This document shows positions 8,041 to 51,343 of a stretch of DNA of 64,000 nt, piece by piece. Under the pieces are notes generated by a model that was not told the DNA's origin, made no database searches, and was given only the letters and a program-made list of their open reading frames with translations. Numbering within the stretch: the stretch's first letter is position 1; each line of letters opens with the position of its first letter. The position numbers and the translations under genes are program-made. The stretch lies in the NCBI GenBank assembly GCA_000004985.1, contig GG738852.1. One strand, written 5' to 3'. This DNA is from Naegleria gruberi (taxonomy: Eukaryota).

Positions 8041-11000
8041 TTATTTTGTTTCAAAATAGGAATGTTCCATAATTTCTTTAGCTTGTGGTCTTTTGGATGG
8101 GTTTTTCTCCAACATTAAAATGATGATTTCCTGTAGTGTGTCTGAATACTTGCCACATTCAGAGAGCTTGTTTTTAAGCCATTGCTTTACATCATTGGTA
8201 GACTCTGATTGCATGTATAAATTACTAATGGATGTAACTAGGTCACCTGTGCATAATTGATAAATTGCAACTCCTAGAGAATACACATCAGTGTTAAAGC
8301 TATACTTTGCTCCAAGACCTAATTCTGGAGACATGTAAAGAGGAGTTCCAGCATAAGAATTATTGACAGAACCAAACATTTGTTTCGCAAGACCAAAATC
8401 TGCCAATACTATCGATACAGAATTATCTGATAATTCATTAATAAAGATATTGTTAGGTTTTACATCTCTGTGAATCATTTTAAGGTTGGTGTGAACAAAG
8501 CTCAAGGCATCACAGCCTTGATAAAGTATTTGTTTCACAATATCCTCACTAATAGTACCTGCTGCTTTAGGAATGAGTTTTGTCAAGTCTCCATTTTCAT
8601 AATAGTCCATGTCAATAAGTAATATTTGATCCTTGTCAATAAATAAATCATTCACTTTTAAAATGTTTGGGTGATTGATATTCATCAATTGAGTTCCTTC
8701 TTTCATAATCGAGTTCAATTCCTCAATATCAGAATATTTGACAACTTTTAGCGCCTTCAGTTTATCGCCCATCTTGGTATCGTTGCATTTAAAAACTGAC
8801 CCAAATCCGCCTTGTCCAATCTTCTCCAAATTCTTATATCTTGAGGCAGGATCGAAATTAGATGCAGATGATATTATAGAAGTGACAGTAAGTCCATTAG
8901 AGTTTGTTGAACCTCCAATTATGGATTTGAAACGAACACTTTCGTCCGATGGAAAGTCTGAACTATATGATGATGGCGCAATGCTAGAATTCATTTTGTT
9001 ATACTGTGAATCATTGAGTTCAATCATGCTCTCTCCCTGATTAGGGAAATCATTGACAGTGTTTGGGACTGGTTTCTGCTTTTTCATTCCTCTAAAAACT
9101 ATAATGAAAACAATTATGACCACAATAATCAATATAACAATAACTAAAAGAGAAAGTCCGACTGCTAAACCAATTATTAAACCTAGTTGATTATTGCCTA
9201 CTATTGTTGAAGAACCAACTCTTGTTGCAATGTTAACATTGCAACTAGAACCTGTCCATCCAGCATTACAGTTGCAATAGTTATAATCAGTGCATTTTCC
9301 ATTTGAGGAACAAGAGTTGGTGTTATTGGAATAAATTCCATAACACATGGTTACTTCACAATATTTTCCATAGAAATTACTACCACAACTACAAGTATCA
9401 TGAGATGAACAACTTCCTCTCGAAGAACAAACAGAAGAATCAGTGCTTTGAGTACCATTACAAAGAGATACCTTACATTCAGTTCCTTGATAGAATGGTT
9501 CACACTGACAAGTGTCTGCTGCTACACAGGTACCATGGCCCCCACAAACAGAAGCATCAGTGGATAACTTTCCAAAACATTTTCTGGTATCACAATTGAC
9601 TCCATAAAATCCATTATTGCATGAACACGAATTGTAATCGATACATGTACCATTGGAGGAACAAACTGAAGTGTCATTCGAAAACTTTCCATAACACATG
9701 GTTACTTCACAATATTTTCCATAGAAATTACTACCACAAATACAAGTATCATGTGCGTTGCATACTCCCCTTAAAGATGAGCATACCAATGTAGAATTAC
9801 TTAATGTACCGTTACAAGTTGTAATTTTACAGTCAGCTCCAAGGTAAAGGCTGTCACATCTGCAAGTGTCACTAGAAATACATGCTCCATGGCCGCTACA
9901 AACATTACTTGTATCGTTTGATAATTTACCAAAACAACTCAATAAATTACACTGAGATCCATAGAATCCTGAGTTGCACTGACAAGTGTCTGGTGCAATG
10001 CATGTACCATTTCTTGAACAAGCATTTGGCTGCTCTGAGCTAAAACCAAAACATGTTGGGATGCATGCATTATAATATTGGTTCAAAATGTAGGGAGAGT
10101 CACAATATGGGGTCAATTGTCTTACAGTATTTTTCTGATTATCAACAAAAACAATTTCAGAAGTAGAGGTAATGAATGCTCCACTAGGGCTTAGAGTGGC
10201 TTTAGTGGCATCGGGACCATCATCATTGAATCCAACCAGGTTTGATCCACCATTTCCTGCCATTGTAGATATAATTCCATTTGCTGCTAATCGCATTCTG
10301 TTTTGTCCTCTGTCAGAAATGACAATAAAATTCGAAATACTTGATCCAAATACAGAAATAGGTGAGAGACCTGCATATAAAATATTACCATTATCATTCA
10401 GACTTGCACCCAACCCAGAGTAAACATTCAGAATATTGGTGCTTGAATCCACATACATGACGCTCAATTTCGAGTTATAGTATGCCAAAAAGTAAAATCC
10501 AGTCGGTGAAACATATATTCCTCCATCTACACTAATTGTGACAGAATTAGCTTGCGATGATCCAGGAATAAATGTTGATTCTGAACTGATAGTTCCAGCA
10601 ACATTTGTTATTATTCCATTGGAATTGATCTTCCTTATCAGAAAATTATCCACAATGAAAACCTCATTAGCAGAAGTGACAAAAATACCAGTTGGGAAGC
10701 TGAATACATTTGGGTGAGCAAAAAGAGTTTTGAAACTTACTAAAGTCTTGCACTGAGAGCATTGACACCATCATCACCTAAATATCCACTGGAAGGTGGC
10801 TGTGATCCAGTACCTGCAATAGTAACAATGGTACCATTAGTGAATATTTTTCTAATTCTTCTATTAACACTGTCTGATATGTATACTTCATTCTTGAATT
10901 CAAATACAGAACTAGGATAGTTCAGTTGAGCTGTGGAAGCATCCATATAATCGCTATTGTATCCAGCAACTCCGGTACCAGCTATCGTAATTATAGTTCC

Positions 11001-26351: not shown

Positions 26352-28490
26352 TTAATATTCTCTATTGAGGAAAGCATCAAGAGATAATTGTCTTGGATCA
26401 TTGTTTGGACCCTTGACAGGTTTTACAGATTTCACATAAATAACTTCATCATCATCATCATCTGACATGTCATCAGCAGCAGTTGTGGAATCAGTCTTAG
26501 TCTTTTTTGAAGACTTGCTACTGTCACTTTCTTCAGATTTACGTTTCTTTGGAGATTTGGCATCTTCACTAGTGGAGCTCTTCTTTTTAGGAGAAACCAT
26601 AGTTTCTGATGTTTTTCTTTTAGGGTTAGCAGGAGCTTCTGGATAAACACAATCTAATCCCTTCTTTGTGCATGTAAGACATGATGGAATATGTCTGCTA
26701 CACTTCTTGTGAGATTTTTTGCAACAGAGGCAAGAAAAATATGACAATTGTTCTTCAGAATTCTCAGTTTCTGATGATGAACTAGATGCTGTAGATTTCT
26801 TATCTTTCTTAGATTTGCTACGTTTTTCAGAAGCTTTTTCTTTTTTACCTGCAGATTTCTTATCTTTCTTAGATTTGCTACGTTTTTCTACTTTTTCTAC
26901 TTTTTCAACCTCACAAACAGATGTATCAAGTCCTCCAACCTCAAAATCCATCTCGTTTGGTATTGAGGAAGGAGTGGTAGAAGTTGGCGTAATTAAGGAG
27001 ATGGTTTCAATAGCCTTATCAGCTGAATTGCTATCGGGATTTTTGGTAACATCCAAAGTAAGTTGTCCTTTTTCATGTTTTTCATTCTTTTTGGTTTTCT
27101 TTTCAGCTTTCTTTTCATTCTTAGTGTCAGATTTTTGCTCGGATTTCTTTTCAGTCTTGTCTTCAATCTTATCCTCCACCTTCTTTTCAGACTTATTTTC
27201 AGTCTTGTCATCTACATTCTTATTATCTTCATCATTCTTCTTATTTTTTCTATTTTTCTTCGTTTTTTTGTTTTCTGTTGTTGGCTTTTCACTCATTTCA
27301 ACATCTTTTGTCTGTTCGAAAGGCTTTTCTTGTGGGCTTTTCACTGATTCTTGAGAGCTTATTTGAGAATTATCCTTTGAATTTTCCTTGTTCTTCTCTT
27401 TTTTCGACTTTTTGTCCTGTGTCGCCTTATTGTTTTGAGATGATTCCTTTTGCTCCTTTTGTACCTCTGTTGTTTTTGGTTGCTCTTTAGTTTGTTTTTC
27501 TGTGATTTTTGGTTGCTCTGGCTTCTCTTGAGAGCTACTTTGTAATGTTCCATTTGTTGGTTGAGTAACATGTTGATTTTCTATAGCCTTTTTTGATTTT
27601 TCATCCTTCTTTTGAAGATATCTTGGTTTATCCTTAGGCTGTTCCTTTGGTTGGATTTTTGGCTTTTCTTGTGAGCTTGCCACTGATTCTTGAGAGCTAT
27701 TTGGCAAAATTGCGATTGGACTTTCTTGTTGTTTCTGTGAGGTTCCATTTGGTTGGGCTAGAGGTTTCTCTTGTGTAACTTGTTGGATAGTTGGTTTAAT
27801 TGACTCGATTATATTAGATTTGGCTATTATTGGGGATTCCTTAGACAGCACGATAGCAGCTGGTTCAGGTTGTGAAATAGTTTCAGGCTTATTCTCGACG
27901 GAAGCAACAACTGGATTAAATTTTGCTTTGAAACTATTTTCTTTTTTGTCTTTCATTCTACCCTTCAGTCGGGAAACTAATTTGTTGAAGGTTTTGACTT
28001 GGCTTGGTGGTGTAGATGATGTTGTAATAATACTAGCATATGCATTTGTAGAGTTCGTAGCATTTGTATTTGAACAAGTTGTAGTGTTTGATGATTCATT
28101 AGAAGCTTGTTTAGGTGTTTGTTTTTTTGGTTTCTTCTTCACTTCCTCGGAATCTGATTCACTCTCATCGCAATACATTGACTCCCAATCTTCTTCTTCA
28201 TCTTCCGAATCATGATTTATACTAAAATCCTCATCCTCTTCCTCTCTATATTCTGTTGGCCTTGAAATAATGTCATCTTCATCACTTGATTCATCCACAA
28301 AAAAATCATCATTTAATACATCGTCATCCTCCTCGTCCTCCATTAAATTTAAAATGCTCGGATCCAATAAATCATCACCATCATCCTCCTCGTAAACTAC
28401 TACTGTCTTGGTCTTCCTTGGGGATTCAGCCTTTCCTTTGTCTTTACTGATTGTTTTACCGGAGAGTGTTTTCTGGACGGTCTTTGGCAT
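26352..28490 (-). CDS. Low-complexity acidic/Lys-Ser-rich nuclear-type protein with a Zn2Cys6 binuclear-cluster-like motif
   Basis: 712-aa ORF with ATG at 28490. It has an acidic N-terminus (DEEDDDVLNDDFFVDESSDEDD), then a long K/E/S/T/Q-rich region. Near the C-terminus is CLCCKKSHKKCSRHIPSCLTCTKKGLDCVY, which is C-x2-C-x6-C-x6-C-x2-C-x6-C. A bipartite NLS-like KKRK follows. Confidence 0.55.
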   Translation of the reverse strand: MPKTVQKTLSGKTISKDKGKAESPRKTKTVVVYEEDDGDDLLDPSILNLMEDEEDDDVLNDDFFVDESSDEDDIISRPTEYREEEDEDFSINHDSEDEEEDWESMYCDESESDSEEVKKKPKKQTPKQASNESSNTTTCSNTNATNSTNAYASIITTSSTPPSQVKTFNKLVSRLKGRMKDKKENSFKAKFNPVVASVENKPETISQPEPAAIVLSKESPIIAKSNIIESIKPTIQQVTQEKPLAQPNGTSQKQQESPIAILPNSSQESVASSQEKPKIQPKEQPKDKPRYLQKKDEKSKKAIENQHVTQPTNGTLQSSSQEKPEQPKITEKQTKEQPKTTEVQKEQKESSQNNKATQDKKSKKEKNKENSKDNSQISSQESVKSPQEKPFEQTKDVEMSEKPTTENKKTKKNRKNKKNDEDNKNVDDKTENKSEKKVEDKIEDKTEKKSEQKSDTKNEKKAEKKTKKNEKHEKGQLTLDVTKNPDSNSADKAIETISLITPTSTTPSSIPNEMDFEVGGLDTSVCEVEKVEKVEKRSKSKKDKKSAGKKEKASEKRSKSKKDKKSTASSSSSETENSEEQLSYFSCLCCKKSHKKCSRHIPSCLTCTKKGLDCVYPEAPANPKRKTSETMVSPKKKSSTSEDAKSPKKRKSEESDSSKSSKKTKTDSTTAADDMSDDDDDEVIYVKSVKPVKGPNNDPRQLSLDAFLNREY
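26793..26888. repeat. Direct repeat of a 36-nt unit (2 copies, about 60-nt period) inside the coding sequence 26352-28490
   Basis: agatttcttatctttcttagatttgctacgtttttc occurs at about 26793-26828 and again at about 26853-26888. On the minus strand this encodes the duplicated peptide RSKSKKDKKS. Confidence 0.6.
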
Positions 28491-36991: not shown

Positions 36992-38800
36992 TTACTCAAT
37001 TGTACATGGAAGATTATTAATCTCGAAAACTCTCTTCATAATATCAAAGTGATATTGGATATTTGGATGTATATCATGAAAATACAAACCCTTATCAATG
37101 ATCATATGGATAAGGTTTTTGTCTTGTTTTAACCTTTCGCTGGCATATCTTATTGATCTTGGATTGTTCAACACTGCCTTGTATACAATTTCTCTATCAT
37201 CCCTTAATTCTGGATTCAAATACTCAAGCCATTCTCCCTGCTTACTCACCAATTCTAGTGCCAATAATCTTGGAATTCCATGTAAAGATTTTGCAGGAAA
37301 GTAAGTAGCGTCATCGATTGAAATTATCCTCAAAAGCTGGCCACATTTTAACATTTCATCTGAAACAAATACAATACTATATGGATCTATCTTAACAAGT
37401 TCTTTCATGAATTCCATATCGTTCCATAAATTTGGATCTATCATTTGTTGGAGTTTGTCATTGAGGATTAGTAATGGTTTTTTCTTTTTGAATAGTTCCT
37501 TAATAAGTTCTCTGTCCGATCTGTACTTTGCAGGTATTTCTTTGAAATGAATCAAGTATTGAAGAGCTGATTCTCTAGTGTCAACCTTTTCCAGATTTCT
37601 CTTTATAAATCCTTTGTAATTTTCAATGAATTCTTTAATTTCTTCTGCAGGATTGACTACTTGTTTACAGATGCTGTCAGCGAGAGATCCATTTCCAAAC
37701 AAATCTTTCACAATTCTTTTAAAGTACTTATTGGTAAATTGCTTATTTTCCAACAAATCCTTATCCGACATTGATAATGGAGCTTTGAGTCCCAATGAGA
37801 GAATCACATCTGGATCCCTGCTACAATAGCAACTATAAGAAAAACCGGGCTCAATTTTGAGAGCCTTAATCATGAATTCCTTATCCTTTAACAGTTCCTT
37901 TCCAACAAATTGCAAAATATATTGTGGATGATTACCCATGCCTGTTTCTATTAATCCATAATCTTGACCAGATTTAATGGCAGCCATGGCAATCTTTGGA
38001 TCATTCTTGAGATTATCAGTTGCATGTGCAATAGAATATGGATTTGAATTGACAGCTTGCATGACAATTTCTGGATCTGATTTAAAAGTATCGCTTGCAA
38101 ATTTCAAAGCAGCACCATTTAACTTTACAGCCTTTGAGACAATTGACTTGTCATTCTTGAATTTCTCTTCAACAAATTGCAAAGCGAGTGGATTACTTTT
38201 GACAGCCATTAATACTACTGCCTTTTTGTTTCTCAATTTTTCACTAGCAAATTTGATACATTCTCCTTGTTTTCTAATGGCCTTTAACATGAGTTCTTTA
38301 TCATCTTTAATCAAAGGTATCACCTTTGACCAGTCATGATCATGAATATGTGAATTCAAGTCTAATAATTTGTTAATGACATCTCTGTCATGTAGCAATT
38401 CTTCTGGAAGATGATCGAGAACCAATCTGTTCAATTTCATAATCACCTCCTTATCCTTCCTAAATTCCTCTGGCAAATGATCAATTTGAATAAATTCCGA
38501 TTTTGAATCGAGTAATTTCATAATAAAATCTCTATCCTTAGTGGTGGATAACCTTTCTCTGAAATCCAACAATCCAATCCTATACAATTCCCTCAGGCAT
38601 TCAATCTTGTTATTGGTGAATAAATAATTTTCGAGAGTTTTTTCCCTTTTATTACTTGTTGTGTTGAGAAATTGTGATGATGAGAAATTTCTAGTCATTG
38701 TAAATATTGACGATGATGATTTGAGAGTTTGAATGAATCCCGAAGATGGTGATGAACCCTGTAAGGAGAACAATCTAACCTTGTTAACAAGTTGTTTCAT
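36992..38800 (-). CDS. DUF4116-repeat protein
   Basis: 602-aa ORF with at least 8 tandem units of about 35 aa. The units follow the pattern D.E.V..AV..N..AL.YAS..LK.D (e.g. DKSIVSKAVKLNGAALKFASDTFKSDPEIVMQAVNSNPYSIAHATDNLKNDPKIAMAAIKSG; DREIVYKAVLNNPRSIRYASERLKQDKNLI), which is typical of DUF4116. Confidence 0.6.
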   Translation of the reverse strand: MKQLVNKVRLFSLQGSSPSSGFIQTLKSSSSIFTMTRNFSSSQFLNTTSNKREKTLENYLFTNNKIECLRELYRIGLLDFRERLSTTKDRDFIMKLLDSKSEFIQIDHLPEEFRKDKEVIMKLNRLVLDHLPEELLHDRDVINKLLDLNSHIHDHDWSKVIPLIKDDKELMLKAIRKQGECIKFASEKLRNKKAVVLMAVKSNPLALQFVEEKFKNDKSIVSKAVKLNGAALKFASDTFKSDPEIVMQAVNSNPYSIAHATDNLKNDPKIAMAAIKSGQDYGLIETGMGNHPQYILQFVGKELLKDKEFMIKALKIEPGFSYSCYCSRDPDVILSLGLKAPLSMSDKDLLENKQFTNKYFKRIVKDLFGNGSLADSICKQVVNPAEEIKEFIENYKGFIKRNLEKVDTRESALQYLIHFKEIPAKYRSDRELIKELFKKKKPLLILNDKLQQMIDPNLWNDMEFMKELVKIDPYSIVFVSDEMLKCGQLLRIISIDDATYFPAKSLHGIPRLLALELVSKQGEWLEYLNPELRDDREIVYKAVLNNPRSIRYASERLKQDKNLIHMIIDKGLYFHDIHPNIQYHFDIMKRVFEINNLPCTIE

Positions 38801-41575: not shown

Positions 41576-44500
41576 TTATTGATCTGGTTGTACATAATGC
41601 AAACTTGCAATAATGACACTTACGTTGTCACCACTATTTCTATTGAAAATAGAATGATTTACCAAGTTTTTGGCAATGATATTGAAATCTTTAACTCGAT
41701 GATGATAGTATTGTTTGTAAATATAATCAGCAACATCACTGTTGTTCATTACATCAAACAAACCATCACTAGCTATGACGATTAAGGTTGGTAAACTTGG
41801 AGTAACACTTGAAAACATTACATCCTTTCCATCTTTGTCATCCTTACGTTTTTCAACTACCTTTTTAGGTTTTTCCAAGTGAATCTTGTGCTTTACAACC
41901 TCAGGGAGAGCAACAACTGCTTGCTTTCTTAAATTAGTATTTTGAATTGGTTGAGTGAGACCAACATTGATTGCACCATTGGTACTTGTTGGATCTGGAT
42001 TATTCTTTGCATAATAATCTCCAAATGTTCTAGAAACAGCCAATCCACAAACACGATTATTTTCAACACGAGATCCAAACATTTCAATTCTTCTCTTTTC
42101 TTGTTCATAGGTTGGTTTATGATCACTGGAGAGAGGAATAATCTTTGACAAGTGAATCATAAAAGCACGACTATCACCAACGTTTGCGCAAGTTACATAG
42201 TATGTATTGGCTTCCTCCTCACTAGCAGTGATAAACACAGTGCAGCCTGTTGAACCAGCACATGCCATAATACCACTAGTTGTTCTTGGAGAAGGAACAC
42301 CCTTTTTAACAGAGAGATTGGTTCTATATTGGTCTATAACCTTTTCACGATATTGTTCATCAACCTTAATGAATGCATACTCAAGAAGATCTCTTCTGGA
42401 GAATATTGGCTCATGGATATTAAATACCAATGATTGATAATTTTCCAAGTGATAGATAAAGTTTTGATACAAATAGTCAGCACATTCAGCACCACCATGT
42501 CCATCAAATACACAAAGTACTGCAGCTTTTTGATTGTGGAAATTTTCAAATGACTTATTTACAAAATAAACACGATCTTCCATATAGTTTCTCTTTCCTC
42601 TTTCTTGAGCACAGCTGATAGCAAGTGGGAGTTGCTTCTTTTCAAAATCGAATATGGATTGTGATGGAGATTCTGTTGGATTTGCTGTGGTATTGTTATT
42701 GTTACCTGGAGTACTTCCTGGAGGAGGCATTGTATTTGGGGAAATGCCATGAGTCTTTTTCTTTGGTGTTACTTGAAGTGGGTCACGCCAAATAAAAGGA
42801 ATTACACTTGTAGAGGCATTTGATTCAGAATCTGATTGGGATTGTTGGACAGAGGTGACATGGTGATTAAGGAATTTAAAGATGGATTGTTCAGCTTGTC
42901 TATAATAGTCCATTTGGGATGGATGTTTGAGAAGATTGAGATCTTTGCAAAGGTCATTACATTGATGTTTGGAGAAGAATCTCTTCACTTCTGTATACTC
43001 GGAAAAGTTGTTGCTGTCGTTAGATTTTTTAGATTGAGGAGAACTTGGCTCGGTCAACTCGGTTGGTGATTTGATAGATTTCTTAGCTGAGGCACCTCCA
43101 CCATTATCAAATATTCTACAATCGAATTTTCCGAAAAGATAACTGCCATAACAGAACATTTCGTTTGCTTCAAAAACAAATGTTCCTTTAGATTCTAAAA
43201 AGATAAAATGGAAAAGAGATTCAGCAACAAAATTACTGGTATGTCTTGGAGGTAGGCAAGCCATCTTTTCACCATGTTTTTCATCAGTAGGATCGAGATA
43301 TGGATATTCTACAAAAGGATAGGCAATTAAGGTTACTTCTTCAACATCAGGGGATGGTGTTACAATACTTGGATTAGATACAGCACCAGTCTTTGGATCA
43401 TAATGTAATCTATATACATTGTAGAAAAGAGAAAAATTCTTTTGTACCTTAGAGTTATAAAGTTGTAAGTAATAGTTCAAATGTGTCAAAACATTGACTG
43501 GATCGTATTTTTGATGACGAGTGTTGATTCTTGTACCATGGAAAGTAAGTCCATTCATTGAAAGATCTTTGATAAAAACTGAATTAGGGAAGGAAGATGT
43601 CTTGGACGGTGTACCTGGTTGTTTTGTTTTAGAATCAGTACTCTTTTCAGTATTCTTACTCTTATCTCTATAATAGAGAACAATATCATGATAAAGTAAT
43701 GAGTTTGCATTTGAAGGATTGGTCATTCCTGAGCTACTGTTATTGGAAATGTAAGTCATTACTTCTGAAACATTGTACTTGTAAATGTAATGTGGGTCAT
43801 TACTAGTATTTTTCCAAAATGTATTATTCTTATTGGCTTCTGCTAATGAGGATGCAATTCCGCTATCTCTACTCTTACTTCTAGATAATCCAGATGGGAT
43901 GGAAGTGGAACTGGCCAATGTATTAATATTACTTCCACTGTTAGAGTGTGAAAGTGTTGGATTACTTGTGGAATGTGAAAGTGGTGTTCCATTTTGAATT
44001 TGTAAAGCACTTGGTAAATATCCAATTTGTTGAAGTGGACTTCCTTCATAGCAAGGAAAACATACAGCTTTGGATTTGTATTCTAAAAATCCTGAAGAGC
44101 TTGATGTTGAAGAAATGTTGTGAAGACTCATGGATGGTGAAATTGAAGGGATACTACTATCACTCTCAGAACCTCCATTTGATTCGCTTGTAATGGTTGA
44201 CAAATTACTATTTTCACTGGTGGATCGACTGATACGTTGCTCATCTTTAGCTTTTTTCTCTTGGTGAGCCATACATAAATGGTTTGTTAAAACACTAGGA
44301 ACATTTGAAAAGTTTGTAAAGGTAAATGCCAAATGTTTAGATTGATTATGTTGTTGAGAATTGCTTGGAGGTACTAGAGGGCTTGCATCAATTGTAGAAA
44401 TATTTGGAGTGGAGGTACTATTCGGAAGTGTCCCACTCGAAGAGGTTGGAATCAAAGGAGTTGAAGTACTTTTCACAATTGCAAATTGTGTAATATTATT

Positions 44501-44986
44501 TCCAGAAGTTGATGGAGGAAGGCTACTATTAACTTGATTTGATCCCGAATTTGTATTTGGGAAGGGTGATTGTGAGGAAGATGTAGTTGTTGGAGAAGCA
44601 GAAGAAATTGTCAATGATACTGGTTGATCCATCTTTAAACTACCTCTATTATTTGGAGTGGAAATAGTTCCCATAGAGGTTGTTGCAGTACCTCCAAAGC
44701 TTTTAGTTCTCGAGTGAAATATTGGCATTTTGTGCATAATCGTCTTGACCAAACCTTCAGATGATTGATTGGAACCTATTCCTTGACCTAATTGTATTGG
44801 AGGAGCTGTTGAGTTTGAAGAAGAAGAAGAAGGCGAAACAGATCCTTGGTTATTTCCCTTGTTCAAAATGATTGATGCCGTGCCTGACTTTAAAGAAGAA
44901 GTAATATTATTCATGTTTGGTGGAGGTGGCATTTTGAATTCTGAATTGTTATTTGATGATGTATTATTATTATTATTGTTACTCAT
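41576..44986 (-). CDS. Protein phosphatase 2C (PPM family) with a roughly 750-aa Ser/Thr/Asn-rich N-terminal extension
   Basis: 1136-aa single ORF with ATG at 44986 (MSNNNNNNTSSNNN). The C-terminal 330 aa carry PP2C motifs: RNYMEDRVYF, AAVLCVFDGHGGAECADY, GSTGCTVFI, GDSRAF, ASDGLFDVMNN. Confidence 0.8.
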   Translation of the reverse strand: MSNNNNNNTSSNNNSEFKMPPPPNMNNITSSLKSGTASIILNKGNNQGSVSPSSSSSNSTAPPIQLGQGIGSNQSSEGLVKTIMHKMPIFHSRTKSFGGTATTSMGTISTPNNRGSLKMDQPVSLTISSASPTTTSSSQSPFPNTNSGSNQVNSSLPPSTSGNNITQFAIVKSTSTPLIPTSSSGTLPNSTSTPNISTIDASPLVPPSNSQQHNQSKHLAFTFTNFSNVPSVLTNHLCMAHQEKKAKDEQRISRSTSENSNLSTITSESNGGSESDSSIPSISPSMSLHNISSTSSSSGFLEYKSKAVCFPCYEGSPLQQIGYLPSALQIQNGTPLSHSTSNPTLSHSNSGSNINTLASSTSIPSGLSRSKSRDSGIASSLAEANKNNTFWKNTSNDPHYIYKYNVSEVMTYISNNSSSGMTNPSNANSLLYHDIVLYYRDKSKNTEKSTDSKTKQPGTPSKTSSFPNSVFIKDLSMNGLTFHGTRINTRHQKYDPVNVLTHLNYYLQLYNSKVQKNFSLFYNVYRLHYDPKTGAVSNPSIVTPSPDVEEVTLIAYPFVEYPYLDPTDEKHGEKMACLPPRHTSNFVAESLFHFIFLESKGTFVFEANEMFCYGSYLFGKFDCRIFDNGGGASAKKSIKSPTELTEPSSPQSKKSNDSNNFSEYTEVKRFFSKHQCNDLCKDLNLLKHPSQMDYYRQAEQSIFKFLNHHVTSVQQSQSDSESNASTSVIPFIWRDPLQVTPKKKTHGISPNTMPPPGSTPGNNNNTTANPTESPSQSIFDFEKKQLPLAISCAQERGKRNYMEDRVYFVNKSFENFHNQKAAVLCVFDGHGGAECADYLYQNFIYHLENYQSLVFNIHEPIFSRRDLLEYAFIKVDEQYREKVIDQYRTNLSVKKGVPSPRTTSGIMACAGSTGCTVFITASEEEANTYYVTCANVGDSRAFMIHLSKIIPLSSDHKPTYEQEKRRIEMFGSRVENNRVCGLAVSRTFGDYYAKNNPDPTSTNGAINVGLTQPIQNTNLRKQAVVALPEVVKHKIHLEKPKKVVEKRKDDKDGKDVMFSSVTPSLPTLIVIASDGLFDVMNNSDVADYIYKQYYHHRVKDFNIIAKNLVNHSIFNRNSGDNVSVIIASLHYVQPDQ

Positions 44987-46360: not shown

Positions 46361-48739
46361 TCACTCCTCTATCCTATTCATTATGTTTCTGATTCTTTCA
46401 AAGTGATGCTGCTTTCTAAGCTTTAGAATATCAATAGTTTCACCCTTTTCATTCTTGTTATTGTCCTTAATTTCCATATTGAGTAGTTCCCTTTCATTTT
46501 TCAAATAATCTTCAATGGCAGCAATGACCTCTTCATAGCTTAACATTTTTTCATTATGTAATTTTCTCTTTCCAAAGGCGTGAAACGTAAGGAACTGAGC
46601 AAATTTTTTGGTGTCAATCTCTGAAAGCATAAAAGATGTGGCAATTAATGATGACCTGTCATTTGATTTGGTATGGATTGTAAATGGTCTATATTGATTT
46701 TCGATAGGATTATCCAATATATCTTCGCCTGTTCCATTCAATATTTCCATTGAATCTCCATTGGTAGGTAAGGAAGGCTCGACGGTACCTGTTGGTGGTG
46801 CTACTTGGAGAATACTGGAGGTTGTTTCTTCCTTTTTAGAGGATTTGACTTGTTCAAGCATACATTTGACTATCCTTTCAACTTGTTGTTCCTGATCCAA
46901 ACGATTTCCAATAGATTGCCCATGCTTGTAGACATATTGTAATTGCTGTTCTACAGTTTCAATAAATATTCCATCTGGTTCATTTCGAGTTTGGAGAGGC
47001 ATTTCAGTAAATTCGCTAGAAGATCCATGCCAATGAACGATAGGAGTTTCCAGAGATCTGATGTTGATTCCAGAATATTGATTGGAAAAGAACCTTCTTC
47101 GATGATCTTTGGAAGGCTCTGCCCTATCATATTGACTTGTCACAGTTCCATACTTGGAGGAATACTTGTTAATGGCTGTTTCTCTCTCTTTAAAATAGTA
47201 ATACTCATTATTTCCAATAATGGGTGTCTTCAAATAAGAGTTTCCTTTTCCACTGTAGCTTCTTGTTAAAATGCATTGATTTTGTTGGGAGGCATCAACC
47301 TCAATAGCATCCAATGGAATGTCATCATTTACCTCCTCGTAATTGATCTGTGGTCTCCTTCTTCTTGTTTTTGTGGAGGAGGCTTCATCTGTTGAGGAGG
47401 AGGATGAAGAGCGTGTAGATTTCCTCTTCTTGCTTGATTTACCTGTTCCTCTTTCGCTGTTATAATTGCTAATGATTTCAGATCGTTTGAGTTTTTTCAG
47501 TTTAACCTTCTTTGTATCTGCATCTTTGTGTATTGGAATTGTTGGTTGGTTTGAGAGTCTCACTAATCTGAATTTATAGACATAGGCACCGTTCTTTCCA
47601 TTGGGGAGAATTTGGCGTTCTTTCCAATAGTTGGTAACCCAATACAGTCCATCATATCTATATCCGCTTATTGGTGCATACTTTTCCTGCAATTGAAATC
47701 CTCTAACAACTCTTACTGGAGTTTTAGAGGTCATATTGATTGTTAAACTTTTGTTCACACTGTTAAGTGTTTGATCAGATGTTTCTGACCCACCCTGTCC
47801 TGTATAAATCATAATGTCTCCCATATCCTCATCACCATATCCACCCATAGAGGATGCAACAATTGATTCGGCAGCCTCTCCATTGTTACCATTTCCGAAA
47901 ATACCACACTGTGGTGGACGATGGGTCTTTGACTTGGAACATTGAATACGTTTTTCATATGTAGTGAAAACAGGTTCGACATGTCCATAAAGTTTTCCTG
48001 AATCATCTGGACTTTCATTGATATGAGTCCATTTAGTAGCATCTCCAATTGATTTCTTGTCTAGATCTGTAATATAATTTGCTCTCTTGTTTTTTTCGTC
48101 TTCATCAAGATCTGAATAGTTTACATCTTCTTCCTCCTCTTCTTCATCATCTTCCTGTTCTTCCATTGGAGTTGTGACTTGTGACTCTTCACTTGGTTCG
48201 AAAGAGAAGGTTACAGTTTTTGCAATTGGGCTAAAATGTGAATCACTTGTTTGATGAGAATTGGTTGACGAAATTGGAGAGAGGGGAGGAACTACCACTT
48301 CAACAGTTTGAGTACTAGGTTTTGAATCTCGAATAATTAATGGCCTTTCTAATGTAAGTGGTTTTTGAGGTGTCGTAGATTGCTTATTCTTCCTTCTGAC
48401 AGATCTTGTCCTTTTAGGTGGCTCATTAAAAGCCTCCTCAAGTGTTAAAAATTCATCCAGATCGTTCTCATCAGTTGGAATAAACCCTGTTGACGGATTC
48501 TGCTGAGCAGTCATGTTGAAAAGTGTTAAATTCGAAATTCCACTATTCTGAGGGGGAAGATCCTCTTCCGACAAATCACTCAAAGTAGTGGGAGATTCAA
48601 AAGAGTTATTCATTGATTTTCCAATATCCATAAAATGTGACGATGAGTCTTCATCATCGGGAAAGGGTGATTGATCACCTACGTCAATATAAATCGGCTG
48701 ATTTTCCAATTTTTCAAATAATGTTCTTTGTATCCGCAT
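46361..48739 (-). CDS. SRA/YDG-domain (methyl-cytosine-binding type) protein with long acidic/basic low-complexity flanks
   Basis: 792-aa single ORF with ATG at 48739. The central block reads PPQCGIFGNGNNGEAAESIVASSMGGYGDEDMGDIMIYTGQGGSETSDQTLNSVNKSLTINMTSKTPVRVVRGFQLQEKYAPISGYRYDGLYWVTNYWKERQILPNGKNGAYVYKFRLVRL. This fits the SRA-YDG consensus (GI.G......A.SIV.SGGY.DD.D.GD...YTG.GG...Q.L...N.AL......PVRV.RG...Y.YDGLY.V...W), including the YDG motif. An acidic stretch (EEQEDDEEEEEED) and a basic stretch (KKRKSTRSSSSSS...TRRRRP) flank it. Confidence 0.65.
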   Translation of the reverse strand: MRIQRTLFEKLENQPIYIDVGDQSPFPDDEDSSSHFMDIGKSMNNSFESPTTLSDLSEEDLPPQNSGISNLTLFNMTAQQNPSTGFIPTDENDLDEFLTLEEAFNEPPKRTRSVRRKNKQSTTPQKPLTLERPLIIRDSKPSTQTVEVVVPPLSPISSTNSHQTSDSHFSPIAKTVTFSFEPSEESQVTTPMEEQEDDEEEEEEDVNYSDLDEDEKNKRANYITDLDKKSIGDATKWTHINESPDDSGKLYGHVEPVFTTYEKRIQCSKSKTHRPPQCGIFGNGNNGEAAESIVASSMGGYGDEDMGDIMIYTGQGGSETSDQTLNSVNKSLTINMTSKTPVRVVRGFQLQEKYAPISGYRYDGLYWVTNYWKERQILPNGKNGAYVYKFRLVRLSNQPTIPIHKDADTKKVKLKKLKRSEIISNYNSERGTGKSSKKRKSTRSSSSSSTDEASSTKTRRRRPQINYEEVNDDIPLDAIEVDASQQNQCILTRSYSGKGNSYLKTPIIGNNEYYYFKERETAINKYSSKYGTVTSQYDRAEPSKDHRRRFFSNQYSGINIRSLETPIVHWHGSSSEFTEMPLQTRNEPDGIFIETVEQQLQYVYKHGQSIGNRLDQEQQVERIVKCMLEQVKSSKKEETTSSILQVAPPTGTVEPSLPTNGDSMEILNGTGEDILDNPIENQYRPFTIHTKSNDRSSLIATSFMLSEIDTKKFAQFLTFHAFGKRKLHNEKMLSYEEVIAAIEDYLKNERELLNMEIKDNNKNEKGETIDILKLRKQHHFERIRNIMNRIEE

Positions 48740-50575: not shown

Positions 50576-51343
50576 ATGATGAATAGTAGCTTTAGCACAA
50601 CCAGCAACCCTGCAATGGAAGAGGTTGAAAAAATGTTTCAGGAAGTAATCGAAATTCACGATCGGGTTGCTCAAAAAACAAACCAATTCGAACAAAACTT
50701 TAAAGGTTTCATTAATAGTCAAATTAACGACAATAATAAGAAAAGACACGATTTTGAACAAAATTGTCAAAATTTTCAATCAGAATTTCAATCACTCACT
50801 ACCCGTGTAGAGAGAGGAATTAATGAAAGACAACATGTGGAAGAAATTAGAAAAAGATACTGTGAGGATGAAGGTGAGCTGGATCAAAGAATAACCGATA
50901 TGAAAGTCAGAGCCGACGAACAACCTAAAATTATTGAAGAATCCAAGCAAAAATTGCTACAACTCAAATCAGAACATGAAGAAAAATCCAACATGCTCAA
51001 TAGAGTTGAATCGGATTTTGTTGACCATGCCACAAAGAAATTTATTGAAAAAGAAAAGTATAGAACTCTTCTTGGAATGACATTCGAAGCAAGACAAGAT
51101 GGTGACATTGCTTACCTTTTAATTTCCTTCTCCATTCAAAATATGCAAGCTTTAGGGTTGACCAGTTGTCAAATTGCTTTGAGAATTGATGGAGGACTAT
51201 ATTCTGTAGCAGGATGTCAACCAGCAATTCAATATGATGATTTAATTGCTTCACTCAATGACAATAAGAACTTTGGATCGTTCATTATCTTGGTCAGAAA
51301 TCGTTTCAAGAACCTTATCAACCAACACAAACCAAGAAAATAG
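50576..51343 (+). CDS. SPC25: Kinetochore protein Spc25-like (N-terminal coiled coil plus C-terminal RWD-like domain)
   Basis: 255 aa. The N-terminal 170 aa have heptad character. The C-terminal GMTFEARQDGDIAYLLISFSIQ...YSVAGCQPAIQYDDLIASLNDNKNFGSFIILVRNRFKNL resembles the Spc25 C-terminal domain (..NNFSAFLANVRKAF..). Confidence 0.45.
   Translation: MMNSSFSTTSNPAMEEVEKMFQEVIEIHDRVAQKTNQFEQNFKGFINSQINDNNKKRHDFEQNCQNFQSEFQSLTTRVERGINERQHVEEIRKRYCEDEGELDQRITDMKVRADEQPKIIEESKQKLLQLKSEHEEKSNMLNRVESDFVDHATKKFIEKEKYRTLLGMTFEARQDGDIAYLLISFSIQNMQALGLTSCQIALRIDGGLYSVAGCQPAIQYDDLIASLNDNKNFGSFIILVRNRFKNLINQHKPRK

What the first reader, a model, noticed from the sequence alone, without database searches (positions are those of the whole stretch)
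46361..48739. SRA/YDG-domain protein, implying a 5-methylcytosine (or modified-base) reading function
The central 200 aa match the SRA-YDG fold, which flips out and binds 5mC/5hmC in UHRF1 and plant SUVH proteins. The conserved GGY.DD.D.GD...YTG.GG and VRV.RG...YDGLY blocks are present. Here it is flanked only by acidic and basic low-complexity regions, with no SET, RING or HNH domain visible. It could be a stand-alone modified-base reader. Its presence argues that this organism modifies cytosines in nuclear DNA.
Basis: partly seen in the sequence, partly recalled or inferred. Interest (0 to 1): 0.5.

Follow-up and report, generated by a model that had tools for sequence, protein, structure and literature searches.

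The report
Fingerless SRA methylcytosine reader, Naegleria
This Naegleria gruberi gene encodes a protein with a genuine SRA/YDG domain that most likely flips out and binds methylated cytosine in any sequence context. It is an already-catalogued but unstudied member of a known reader family, so it is a useful lead rather than a surprise.

Summary
Bases 46361-48739 (minus strand) are one uninterrupted 792-aa ORF. It matches Pfam SAD_SRA at E=1.4e-33 (aa 256-398), and its predicted structure (pLDDT 86) superposes on the UHRF1, UHRF2, SUVH5 and TagI SRA domains.

The protein is Naegleria gruberi XP_002680882 (D2V4P2). A 2023 comparative table already lists it in its UHRF1 column. A published methylome shows that N. 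gruberi carries sparse, heterochromatic 5mC with no CpG preference.

New details from this work:
- The pocket and thumb match SUVH5 (Q277, G279, Y301, D303, Y312, T313, Q315).
- The UHRF1 finger loop is reduced to four residues, in all heterolobosean relatives examined.
- The C-terminal 300 aa are not just low complexity. They hold three conserved blocks with no homologue outside Naegleria/Willaertia among 1.84 billion representative proteins.
- A second paralogue shares only the last block.

Best reading: a thumb-only, context-independent 5mC reader that brings an unknown partner to methylated heterochromatin. It is not a UHRF1, SUVH or SRA-HNH member. DNA binding and partners are untested.

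Verdict: new member of a known kind, with modest interest.

The parts
46361..48739 (-). Complete single-exon CDS of 792 aa plus stop. It equals N. gruberi XP_002680882.1 / EFC48138.1 / UniProt D2V4P2 / NAEGRDRAFT_46701.
   Evidence: The ORF is listed. It is 100% identical over 100% of its length to P0001.
48164..48739 (-). N-terminal region, aa 1-192. It is S/T-rich with net charge -13, is poorly conserved, and is probably disordered.
   Evidence: The ortholog alignment shows almost no conserved columns here.
48077..48163 (-). Poly-acidic tract, aa 193-221 (EEQEDDEEEEEEDVNYSDLDEDE...), with 17 D/E in 29 residues.
   Evidence: Composition is. An acidic tract sits at the same position in the orthologs.
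47525..48076 (-). Structured SRA module, aa 222-405. It includes a conserved N-terminal extension (ITDLDKKSIGDATKW...YGH) that packs on the barrel.
   Evidence: The AF2 model of aa 215-440 has pLDDT 86, with the first 20 residues at 90-96. Foldseek places it on the UHRF1, UHRF2, SUVH5 and TagI SRA domains. The extension is conserved in the orthologs and paralogs.
47546..47974 (-). Pfam SAD_SRA (PF02182) match, aa 256-398.
   Evidence: E=1.4e-33 and 116.2 bits, against a cutoff of 30.7.
47900..47923 (-). Thumb loop H273-I280 (HRPPQCGI). Q277 aligns with SUVH5 Gln392 and UHRF1 Val446, the residue that enters the minor groove and replaces the flipped base.
   Evidence: The alignments are. The role of Gln392 is described in PMC4740795.
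47789..47845 (-). Base-binding pocket segment G299-G317 (GGYGDEDMGDIMIYTGQGG). Y301 and Y312 are the stacking tyrosines (SUVH5 Y416 and Y428). D303 is the Watson-Crick-edge acid (SUVH5 D418). T313 and Q315 equal SUVH5 T429 and Q431.
   Evidence: These are invariant columns. The residue roles are from PMC4740795.
47777..47788 (-). Remnant of the finger loop, S318-S321 (SETS). Four residues stand where SUVH5 has 12 and UHRF1 has 14, including N489-K490-R491.
   Evidence: The alignments are. The deletion is shared by all heterolobosean SRA proteins examined.
47330..47524 (-). Basic, serine-rich linker, aa 406-470 (KKVKLKKLKR, KSSKKRKSTRSSSSSS, KTRRRRP), net charge +11. It is NLS-like and includes a short post-SRA helix at aa ~419-431.
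   Evidence: Composition is. The helix is H205-217 of the model, with pLDDT about 65-72. A 'TR.EY' motif is conserved here in the orthologs and paralogs.
47120..47275 (-). Conserved block 1, aa 489-540 (CILTRSYSGKGNSYLKTPIIGNNEYYYFKERETAINKYSSKYGTVTSQYDRA). It is specific to paralog group A.
   Evidence: Invariant residues P506, Y515, F516, R519 and G531 appear. There is no Pfam or PDB profile match. It is absent from group B.
46904..47047 (-). Conserved block 2, aa 565-612 (HWHGSSSEFTEMPLQTRNEPDGIFIETVEQQLQYVYKHGQSIGN). It is specific to paralog group A.
   Evidence: Invariant H569, W570, H571, S573-E576, E579, P581, N586, D589, G590, E597, L600, Y604 and G607 appear. No homologue was found outside the orthologs.
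46364..46690 (-). Conserved block 3, aa 684-792. It is a C-terminal, mostly helical module (…SLIATSFMLSEI…, …IEDYLKNERELL…, …LRKQHHFERIRNIMNRI) shared with the second Naegleria SRA paralog.
   Evidence: hhalign of group A against group B gives probability 98.4% and E 9e-15 over aa ~679-790. Helices are predicted at aa 735-759 and 771-791, at low confidence.

Best explanation
The gene encodes a nuclear chromatin protein whose only recognisable domain is an SRA/YDG beta-barrel.

The proposed mechanism has four steps.

1. The SRA domain binds duplex DNA through conserved backbone contacts.
2. The thumb loop (HRPPQCGI) pushes in from the minor groove and flips a modified cytosine out of the helix.
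3. The flipped base sits between Tyr301 and Tyr312, with Asp303 reading its Watson-Crick edge.
4. Gln277 fills the gap and pairs with the orphan guanine, as in Arabidopsis SUVH5.

The major-groove 'NKR finger' gives UHRF1 its hemi-methylated-CpG specificity. Here it is deleted to a four-residue turn. The domain should therefore read 5mC (and probably tolerate 5hmC) regardless of neighbouring sequence or of the methylation state of the other strand. That fits the CpG-independent, weakly symmetric methylation reported for N. gruberi heterochromatin.

The acidic N-terminal and basic linker regions are probably disordered, and the basic linker is NLS-like.

**Shown here:** the domain identity, the fold, the conservation of pocket and thumb residues, the loss of the finger, the absence of any known effector domain, and the conservation and taxonomic restriction of the C-terminus.

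**Inferred:** 5mC binding, context independence, nuclear localisation and effector recruitment.
For: - **Domain and fold.** Pfam SAD_SRA scores 1.4e-33. PDB sequence hits are to the SUVH5, TagI and UHRF1 SRA domains. The AF2 model has pLDDT 86. Foldseek TM-scores to SUVH5 are 0.81-0.87.
- **Functional residues.** Q277, G279, Y301, D303, Y312, T313 and Q315 are identical to SUVH5 Q392, G394, Y416, D418, Y428, T429 and Q431, and C278 replaces S393. The roles of these residues are described in PMC4740795.
- **Purifying selection.** G299, G300, Y301, D303, Y312-G317, R343, R346 and Y362-Y366 are invariant across four Naegleria sequences (three named species plus an unnamed ENA sequence) and Willaertia.
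- **Finger loss.** Four residues stand where SUVH5 has 12 and UHRF1 has 14, and this holds across the family.
- **Role of the finger.** SRA domains with a disordered finger, such as SUVH5, rely on the thumb only, and SUVH5 binds both hemi- and fully modified CG DNA (PMC4740795). PDB entries also show SUVH5 SRA bound to methylated CHH DNA (3q0f). In UHRF1, base flipping is energetically enabled without the finger, while discrimination is encoded by it (PMC6816099).
- **Organism context.** N. gruberi has 0.28% mC at similar levels in all four dinucleotides, with CpG symmetry r=0.25. It has 447 hypermethylated regions on young transposons and silent genes, which coincide with H3K9me3 and H3K27me3. 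It also has two DNMT1 enzymes (PMC12344493).
- **C-terminus.** It contains conserved blocks, and block 3 is shared with the paralog.
Against: - No binding data exist for this protein or for any heterolobosean SRA.
- A fingerless SRA may flip bases promiscuously and discriminate modification states poorly. PMC6816099 argues that specificity is encoded by the finger.
- A family-specific two-residue insertion in the pocket-wall loop (VASSMGGY against V.S--GGY) could change what fits in the pocket. A one-residue insertion in UHRF2 shifts preference to 5hmC.
- The C-terminal region gave an unusable structure model (pLDDT 37) and has no detectable homologues. The effector-recruitment step is therefore pure inference.
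- The SUVH5-like residue mapping rests on sequence alignment, not on inspected coordinates.
Confidence: 0.6

Rival explanations
1. The domain reads an oxidised base rather than 5mC itself, such as 5hmC, 5fC, 5caC or a TET-generated 5hmU. The protein would then act downstream of the Naegleria TET-like enzymes.
For: N. gruberi encodes active TET-like dioxygenases (PMC4678852) that may also act on thymine (PMC12344493). The heterolobosean SRA has a two-residue insertion in the beta3-beta5 pocket-wall loop. A one-residue insertion in the same loop enlarges the UHRF2 pocket and favours 5hmC (PMC4740795). SUVH5, the closest pocket match, binds 5mC and 5hmC with similar affinity.
Against: No 5hmC was detected in the methylated regions by nanopore sequencing. 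The pocket side chains are the bulky SUVH5 type (Tyr and Gln), not the smaller UHRF2 type (Phe and Ser). The conserved Asp303 reads the cytosine N3/N4 edge, which argues against a thymine derivative.
Confidence: 0.15
2. It is the functional UHRF1 equivalent. It would recognise newly replicated hemi-methylated DNA and load DNMT1 for maintenance methylation.
For: It is the only N. gruberi entry in the UHRF1 column of the Funabiki survey. N. gruberi methylation is attributed to DNMT1 orthologues. The conserved orphan C-terminus could be a DNMT1-binding surface.
Against: No UBL, tandem-Tudor, PHD or RING domain is present. The finger loop is deleted, yet it is required for hemi-mCpG discrimination and for methylation maintenance by UHRF1 (PMC6816099). 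The SRA core falls in a heterolobosean clade (85% bootstrap) outside the UHRF clade (93%). CpG methylation symmetry in N. gruberi is weak, at r=0.25.
Confidence: 0.12
3. It is a modification-dependent DNA-processing enzyme. The conserved C-terminal blocks (HWHGSSSE...NEPDG) would be a novel catalytic module, and the protein would descend from bacterial SRA-HNH restriction enzymes.
For: The best non-heterolobosean sequence hits are bacterial SRA-HNH proteins. They score 95 bits and 101-136 bits, while plant, fungal and animal SRA proteins score 73 bits or less. TagI is the second-best PDB sequence hit. Block 2 has invariant His, Glu and Asp residues.
Against: There is no HNH, PD-(D/E)XK or other nuclease signature in Pfam. 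The C-terminal profile finds nothing among 1.84 billion proteins except its own orthologs. The blocks are short (about 50 aa each) and are modelled as low-confidence helices and coil. The neighbour-joining tree does not join the heterolobosean and bacterial clades with support.
Confidence: 0.05
4. The SRA domain is a degenerate or non-specific DNA binder. It would be a base flipper without modification selectivity, or a protein-interaction module, and the link to 5mC would be incidental.
For: The domain resembles the engineered UHRF1 delta-finger construct (GG-QSCDQ there, GG-SETSDQ here). Work on UHRF1 frames the SRA as a promiscuous flipper whose specificity lies in the finger.
Against: Every pocket residue that contacts the flipped 5mC in SUVH5 is kept, and these residues are invariant across the Naegleria and Willaertia orthologs. 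SUVH5 itself works with a disordered finger and still selects 5mC and 5hmC.
Confidence: 0.08

Closest known systems
Arabidopsis SUVH5 SRA domain (PDB 3Q0B/3Q0C/3Q0D/3Q0F, 4YGI)
   Same: It is the best PDB sequence hit at 1.4e-18, and the highest target-normalised TM-scores are to it, at 0.81-0.87. The thumb Gln, both stacking Tyr, the Asp, the Thr and the pocket Gln are identical. SUVH5 uses a thumb-only mechanism with a non-functional finger and binds both hemi- and fully modified CG DNA. It is also crystallised on methylated CHH DNA (3q0f).
   Different: SUVH5 carries pre-SET/SET/post-SET histone methyltransferase domains, which this protein lacks. The SUVH5 finger is 12 residues and disordered, whereas here it is physically deleted to 4. 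This protein has a two-residue insertion before the GGY motif. The two fall in separate clades in the tree.
Mammalian UHRF1/UHRF2 SRA domain
   Same: The fold is the same, with Foldseek E about 3e-13. The HRP thumb motif, the GGY...YTG.GG pocket and the VRVVR/YDG(L/I)Y core are shared. The protein is listed as the N. gruberi entry in the UHRF1 column of PMC10538959.
   Different: There are no UBL, TTD, PHD or RING domains. The NKR finger (residues 484-494) is absent. The thumb residue is Gln, not Val. The large insertion after the finger region (…CFAPINDQEGAEAKDW…) is absent. It is not in the UHRF clade.
Bacterial SRA-HNH type IV restriction enzymes (TagI, ScoA3IV/Sco5333, TbiR51I)
   Same: These are the highest-scoring non-heterolobosean relatives by sequence. 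TagI has an rmsd of 2.1 A over 157 aligned columns.
   Different: There is no HNH nuclease domain. The bacterial finger region is 8-9 residues longer. This is a eukaryotic nuclear gene with long disordered regions.
SRA-only 'YDG domain-containing' proteins of fungi (e.g. Puccinia) and other protists
   Same: They share the architecture of one SRA domain with long, unannotated, low-complexity flanks. The Funabiki survey recognises a class of homologs with SRA but no RING.
   Different: The flanking sequences show no detectable homology. The fungal proteins keep a long finger region.

Membership tests
SRA/YDG (SAD_SRA, PF02182) domain superfamily | A significant match to the family HMM above the curated threshold. 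| tested here: met
   116.2 bits against a cutoff of 30.7, E=1.4e-33, covering profile positions 9-148 of 148.
SRA/YDG (SAD_SRA, PF02182) domain superfamily | The SRA beta-barrel fold. | tested here: met
   The AF2 model has pLDDT 86 and pTM 0.79. All 50 Foldseek matches listed are structures containing an SRA domain, with TM-score up to 0.87.
SRA/YDG (SAD_SRA, PF02182) domain superfamily | A base-flipping thumb loop with an inserting residue. | tested here: met
   HRPPQCGI aligns with SUVH5 HRPSQSGI and UHRF1 HRPHVAGI. Q277 corresponds to Q392 and V446. This is judged by alignment, not by a DNA complex.
SRA/YDG (SAD_SRA, PF02182) domain superfamily | A pocket with two stacking aromatic residues and an acidic residue for the cytosine Watson-Crick edge. 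| tested here: met
   Y301, Y312 and D303 are invariant in the orthologs and align with SUVH5 Y416, Y428 and D418.
SRA/YDG (SAD_SRA, PF02182) domain superfamily | Preferential binding of DNA containing 5mC or 5hmC. | not testable with these tools
   This requires EMSA, ITC or fluorescence polarisation with the recombinant domain.
UHRF1/UHRF2 (ICBP90/Np95) family | The UBL - tandem Tudor - PHD - SRA - RING architecture. | tested here: not met
   Only SAD_SRA is found at E<=1 on the whole protein, and nothing at E<=10 on the C-terminal 359 aa. There is no room for extra exons.
UHRF1/UHRF2 (ICBP90/Np95) family | The NKR finger loop (UHRF1 residues 484-494), which reads hemi-methylated CpG from the major groove. 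| tested here: not met
   Only four residues (SETS) lie between GG and DQ. The finger definition and role are from PMC6816099.
UHRF1/UHRF2 (ICBP90/Np95) family | The SRA core groups with the UHRF clade. | tested here: not met
   In the neighbour-joining tree, the UHRF-type clade (93%) excludes it, and it sits in a heterolobosean clade (85%). This is a crude method, and the deep nodes are unresolved.
SUVH (Su(var)3-9 homolog) SRA-SET histone methyltransferases | Pre-SET/SET catalytic domains C-terminal to the SRA. | tested here: not met
   No PF05033 or PF00856 match was found, whereas the plant hits carry both.
Bacterial SRA-HNH modification-dependent endonucleases | An HNH (PF13391 or PF01844) nuclease domain fused to the SRA. 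| tested here: not met
   No HNH match was found. The C-terminal profile finds no bacterial protein.
Methyl-CpG-binding domain (MBD), considered for C-terminal block 1 | Profile similarity to the MBD family. | tested here: not met
   No Pfam hit was found. A PDB profile search returned no MBD chain.

The most novel reading that the evidence does not exclude
The fingerless heterolobosean SRA protein, acting through its orphan C-terminal module, could be the missing adaptor behind Naegleria's unusual CpG-independent 'CX' methylation. It would bind 5mC in any context by a thumb-only flip and recruit a DNMT1-type enzyme or an H3K9/H3K27 methylation factor to neighbouring DNA. Methylation would then be maintained regionally by positive feedback rather than site by site. 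This would be a UHRF1-independent maintenance logic in a deep-branching eukaryote.
Probability: 0.2. Interest if true: 0.6.

Novelty: new member of a known kind. Interest (0 to 1): 0.3.

Why it matters
Naegleria sits on a deep eukaryotic branch, and its methylome is odd. The 5mC is sparse and heterochromatic, has no CpG preference, and is made by DNMT1-type enzymes (PMC12344493). No reader of that mark has been studied.

Their natural loss of the finger loop makes them a ready-made test of a current hypothesis: that the SRA thumb does the flipping while the finger sets the specificity (PMC6816099).

If the conserved orphan C-terminus binds DNMT1 or a heterochromatin factor, it would show how DNA and histone silencing marks are coupled without UHRF1 or SUVH proteins.

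As it stands, this is a well-supported annotation with testable details, not a discovery of a new kind of system.

Tried and rejected
1. **Structure of the C-terminal region (aa 485-792).** An AF2 run with a 5-sequence alignment gave pLDDT 37.4 and pTM 0.19, which is unusable. No fold search was attempted on it.
2. **Remote homology of the C-terminus.**
   - Pfam gave nothing at E<=10.
   - An exhaustive HMMER profile search of 1.84 billion representatives returned only the four orthologs.
   - A PDB profile search with block 1 returned only chance-level hits, to a glucoamylase and ribosomal protein L3, at E>=0.13.
3. **Block 1 as an MBD-like domain.** By eye, block 1 (R..SGKGNSYLKTP...YYYFKERE.AI.KY) resembled an MBD. 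hhalign probability was 0.4%, so this was rejected.
4. **Block 2 as a nuclease motif.** By eye, 'PDG...E' in block 2 suggested a PD-(D/E)XK motif. The Glu five residues after the Asp (E594) is not conserved (it is Lys in Willaertia), the only invariant Glu (E597) lies eight residues after the Asp, and no Lys follows in the ExK register. This was rejected without further testing.
5. **Synteny as a functional clue.** The N. lovaniensis ortholog has entirely different neighbours, and the N. gruberi neighbours are unrelated housekeeping genes. This was uninformative.
6. **Literature search for the accession numbers.** There was no hit in any main text. Only the supplementary table of PMC10538959 lists the protein.
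7. **Origin of the domain.** A neighbour-joining tree with 100 bootstraps left the order of the heterolobosean, bacterial, SUVH and UHRF clades unresolved. I make no claim of lateral transfer.
8. **Hashimoto 2014 (PMC4364404).** The paper could not be read because it is not held.


Full report
**What is there**

Window bases 46361-48739 hold one uninterrupted minus-strand ORF of 792 aa. A word-indexed search of 5.8 billion proteins finds a 100% identical, full-length match, a 'predicted protein [Naegleria gruberi]'. An exact look-up gives its accessions as EFC48138.1, XP_002680882.1, UniProt D2V4P2 and NAEGRDRAFT_46701. The window is therefore N. gruberi nuclear DNA, with about 33% GC.

The gene is tightly bounded. 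A divergent prenyltransferase beta-subunit ORF starts 265 bp upstream, and a convergent Ras-like GTPase ORF ends 50 bp downstream. No additional exons encoding other domains can be hidden nearby.

**The SRA domain is real**

- Pfam SAD_SRA matches aa 256-398 at E=1.4e-33, with 116 bits against a gathering score of 30.7.
- PDB sequence hits are SUVH5 SRA at 1.4e-18, the bacterial SRA-HNH enzyme TagI at 3.2e-17, and UHRF1/UHRF2 at about 4e-15 to 1e-14.
- I modelled aa 215-440 with a 23-sequence alignment. The result has pLDDT 86.1 and pTM 0.79. It includes a well-ordered N-terminal extension (aa 215-235, pLDDT 90-96) and a helix after the barrel.
- Foldseek against the PDB lists only structures that contain an SRA domain among its 50 listed matches. 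E-values run from 1e-13 to 1e-11. TM-scores normalised to SUVH5 are 0.81-0.87, and rmsd is 2.1-3.2 A on ungapped alignments.

**Functional anatomy of the domain**

I aligned the domain with human UHRF1, SUVH5, TagI and heterolobosean relatives. The roles of SUVH5 residues are taken from PMC4740795.

| Naegleria residue | SUVH5 equivalent | Role |
|---|---|---|
| Q277, in thumb HRPPQCGI | Gln392 (UHRF1 Val446) | Enters the minor groove, replaces the flipped base and pairs with the orphan G |
| C278, G279 | Ser393, Gly394 | Thumb loop |
| Y301, Y312 | Tyr416, Tyr428 | Stack on the flipped base |
| D303 | Asp418 | Reads the Watson-Crick edge |
| T313, Q315 | Thr429, Gln431 | Line the pocket |

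Seven of these eight positions are identical to SUVH5. The pocket residues are invariant across the four Naegleria sequences and Willaertia.

Two features are specific to the heterolobosean proteins.

- **Finger loop.** It is essentially deleted. Four residues (S318-S321) lie between GG and DQ, against 12 in SUVH5 and 14 in UHRF1, where they include N489-K490-R491.
- **Pocket-wall loop.** It carries a two-residue insertion (VASSMGGY against V.S--GGY).

Both features are shared by Naegleria paralogs, Willaertia, Acrasis kona and an unnamed EukProt sequence.

The sequence left at the finger position (GG-SETSDQ) resembles the engineered UHRF1 delta-finger construct, in which Gly483 is joined to Gln495 to give GG-QSCDQ. 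The study using that construct concluded that flipping is driven by backbone distortion and thumb insertion, and that the finger encodes discrimination and is needed for maintenance methylation (PMC6816099).

**The rest of the protein**

Pfam finds nothing else, at E<=1 on the whole protein and at E<=10 on the C-terminal 359 aa. The flanks are nevertheless not all low complexity.

- **N-terminal 192 aa.** This region is S/T-rich, acidic and unconserved. It is followed by a poly-acidic tract at aa 193-221.
- **Basic linker, aa 406-470.** It follows the barrel, has net charge +11 and contains NLS-like runs.
- **Block 1, aa 489-540.** It contains CILTR..GKGNSYLKTP..YYYFKERE.
- **Block 2, aa 565-612.** It contains HWHGSSSEFTE.PL..RNEPDGIF.E..EQQL.YVYK.G.
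- **Block 3, aa 684-792.** It is helical and ends ...LRKQHHFERIRNIMNRI.

A profile of aa 485-792 was searched exhaustively against 1.84 billion representative proteins. It retrieved only four proteins, all orthologs: this protein, an unnamed ENA sequence and the N. fowleri and Willaertia proteins. The AF2 model of this region was unusable, at pLDDT 37. An MBD-like reading of block 1 was tested and rejected.

**Family context**

A second search, using a profile of the paralog group, found several relatives.

- A group-B paralog is present in N. lovaniensis, N. fowleri and N. gruberi.
- The NCBI N. gruberi model (P0032, 319 aa) stops inside the SRA domain, while a near-identical ENA protein (P0006, 699 aa) is full length. 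The gene model is therefore probably truncated.
- Acrasis kona has two SRA proteins.

hhalign shows that block 3 is homologous between groups A and B, with probability 98.4% and E 9e-15. Blocks 1-2 are found only in group A.

In a neighbour-joining tree of SRA cores, the heterolobosean proteins form their own clade (85% bootstrap). They are distinct from the UHRF-type clade (93%) and the SUVH clade (100%). The order of the clades is unresolved.

By raw score, the nearest outsiders are bacterial SRA-HNH enzymes. I do not claim lateral transfer on that basis.

**Organism context from the literature**

PMC12344493 reports the following for N. gruberi.

- Cytosine methylation is 0.28% by EM-seq, and WGBS confirms it.
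- All four CN dinucleotides are methylated at similar levels, and CpG symmetry is modest (r=0.25).
- There are 447 hypermethylated regions on young transposons and silent genes, and they coincide with H3K9me3 and H3K27me3.
- The species has two DNMT1 orthologues.
- Nanopore sequencing detected no 5hmC, even though the species has TET-like enzymes.

PMC4678852 documents the NgTet1 activity.

The supplementary table of PMC10538959 lists XP_002680882 in its UHRF1 column for N. gruberi. The same paper's figure legends recognise a class of homologs with SRA but no RING. No paper's main text mentions this accession.

**Interpretation**

The most economical reading is a stand-alone reader of methylated cytosine that works like SUVH5. 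Base flipping would be thumb-only, with Gln277 replacing the base and no finger. It should therefore show no CpG or hemi-methylation requirement. That matches the CpG-independent, weakly symmetric methylation of this organism. The C-terminal blocks are the only conserved surfaces that could couple reading to an output, and block 3 may mediate self-association.

These last steps are inference. So is 5mC binding itself.

The rivals are listed with their tests: an oxidised-base reader, a UHRF1-like maintenance cofactor, a novel enzyme, or a non-selective flipper. The protein fails the membership tests for UHRF1, SUVH and SRA-HNH, and passes all computable tests for the SRA superfamily.

**Verdict**

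- The finger loop is missing.
- The C-terminus is conserved rather than low complexity.
- The protein was already catalogued.

This is a new, uncharacterised member of a known kind. Interest is modest (0.3). It would rise if the fingerless domain proves to be the context-independent 5mC reader that couples to DNMT1 or heterochromatin in Naegleria.

Noticed in passing
Not in the window. Proteins P0032 (N. gruberi, 319 aa) and P0006 (ENA, 699 aa).: N. gruberi has a second SRA-family gene, paralog group B. Its NCBI gene model ends inside the SRA domain (…GGYGDEDYGD, followed by an unrelated tail), while a near-identical ENA protein is full length. The gene model is probably truncated or frameshifted, so surveys that count SRA proteins in N. 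gruberi would miss it.
   Followed up: partly
SRA cores of heterolobosean proteins (P0001-P0008, P0031, P0033, P0034).: The best non-heterolobosean sequence matches are bacterial SRA-HNH restriction enzymes. They score 95 bits and 101-136 bits, well ahead of plant, fungal and animal SRA proteins. A neighbour-joining tree leaves the inter-clade order unresolved, so the origin (vertical descent or lateral transfer) stays open.
   Followed up: partly
P0005 (Willaertia magna).: Its SRA core groups with the Naegleria group-B paralogs (94% bootstrap), yet its C-terminus carries the group-A blocks 1-2 (HHWHSSSSE…). This suggests that the A/B duplication occurred within the Naegleria lineage, with faster evolution of the group-A SRA or domain reshuffling.
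   Followed up: partly
L001:6001-8622 (N. lovaniensis ortholog).: The ortholog lies among different genes (TFIIIC subunit, Sec61-beta, PQ-loop, UCH). Its gene span is about 57 nt longer than its CDS, which implies a small intron. There is no synteny with the N. gruberi locus.
   Followed up: partly
window 26352-28490 (-): This 712-aa ORF has a 'fungal' Zn(2)-Cys(6) binuclear cluster domain (PF00172, E=4.6e-7). It lies in the 2-kb bin with the window's most extreme AT skew, -0.32.
   Followed up: no
window 8041-10653 (-): This 870-aa ORF combines teneurin-like EGF repeats with a C-terminal protein kinase domain, a receptor-kinase-like architecture.
   Followed up: no
window 41576-44986 (-): This 1136-aa ORF has a PP2C phosphatase domain only in its C-terminal third (aa ~794-1036). 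The domain is preceded by about 790 aa of N/S/T-rich, apparently disordered sequence.
   Followed up: no
window 50576-51343 (+) and 36992-38800 (-): The first ORF is an Spc25 kinetochore-protein homologue (PF08234, 9.3e-9). The second is a protein built of six DUF4116 repeats (2.6e-71). Both are ordinary neighbours and unrelated to the SRA gene.
   Followed up: no
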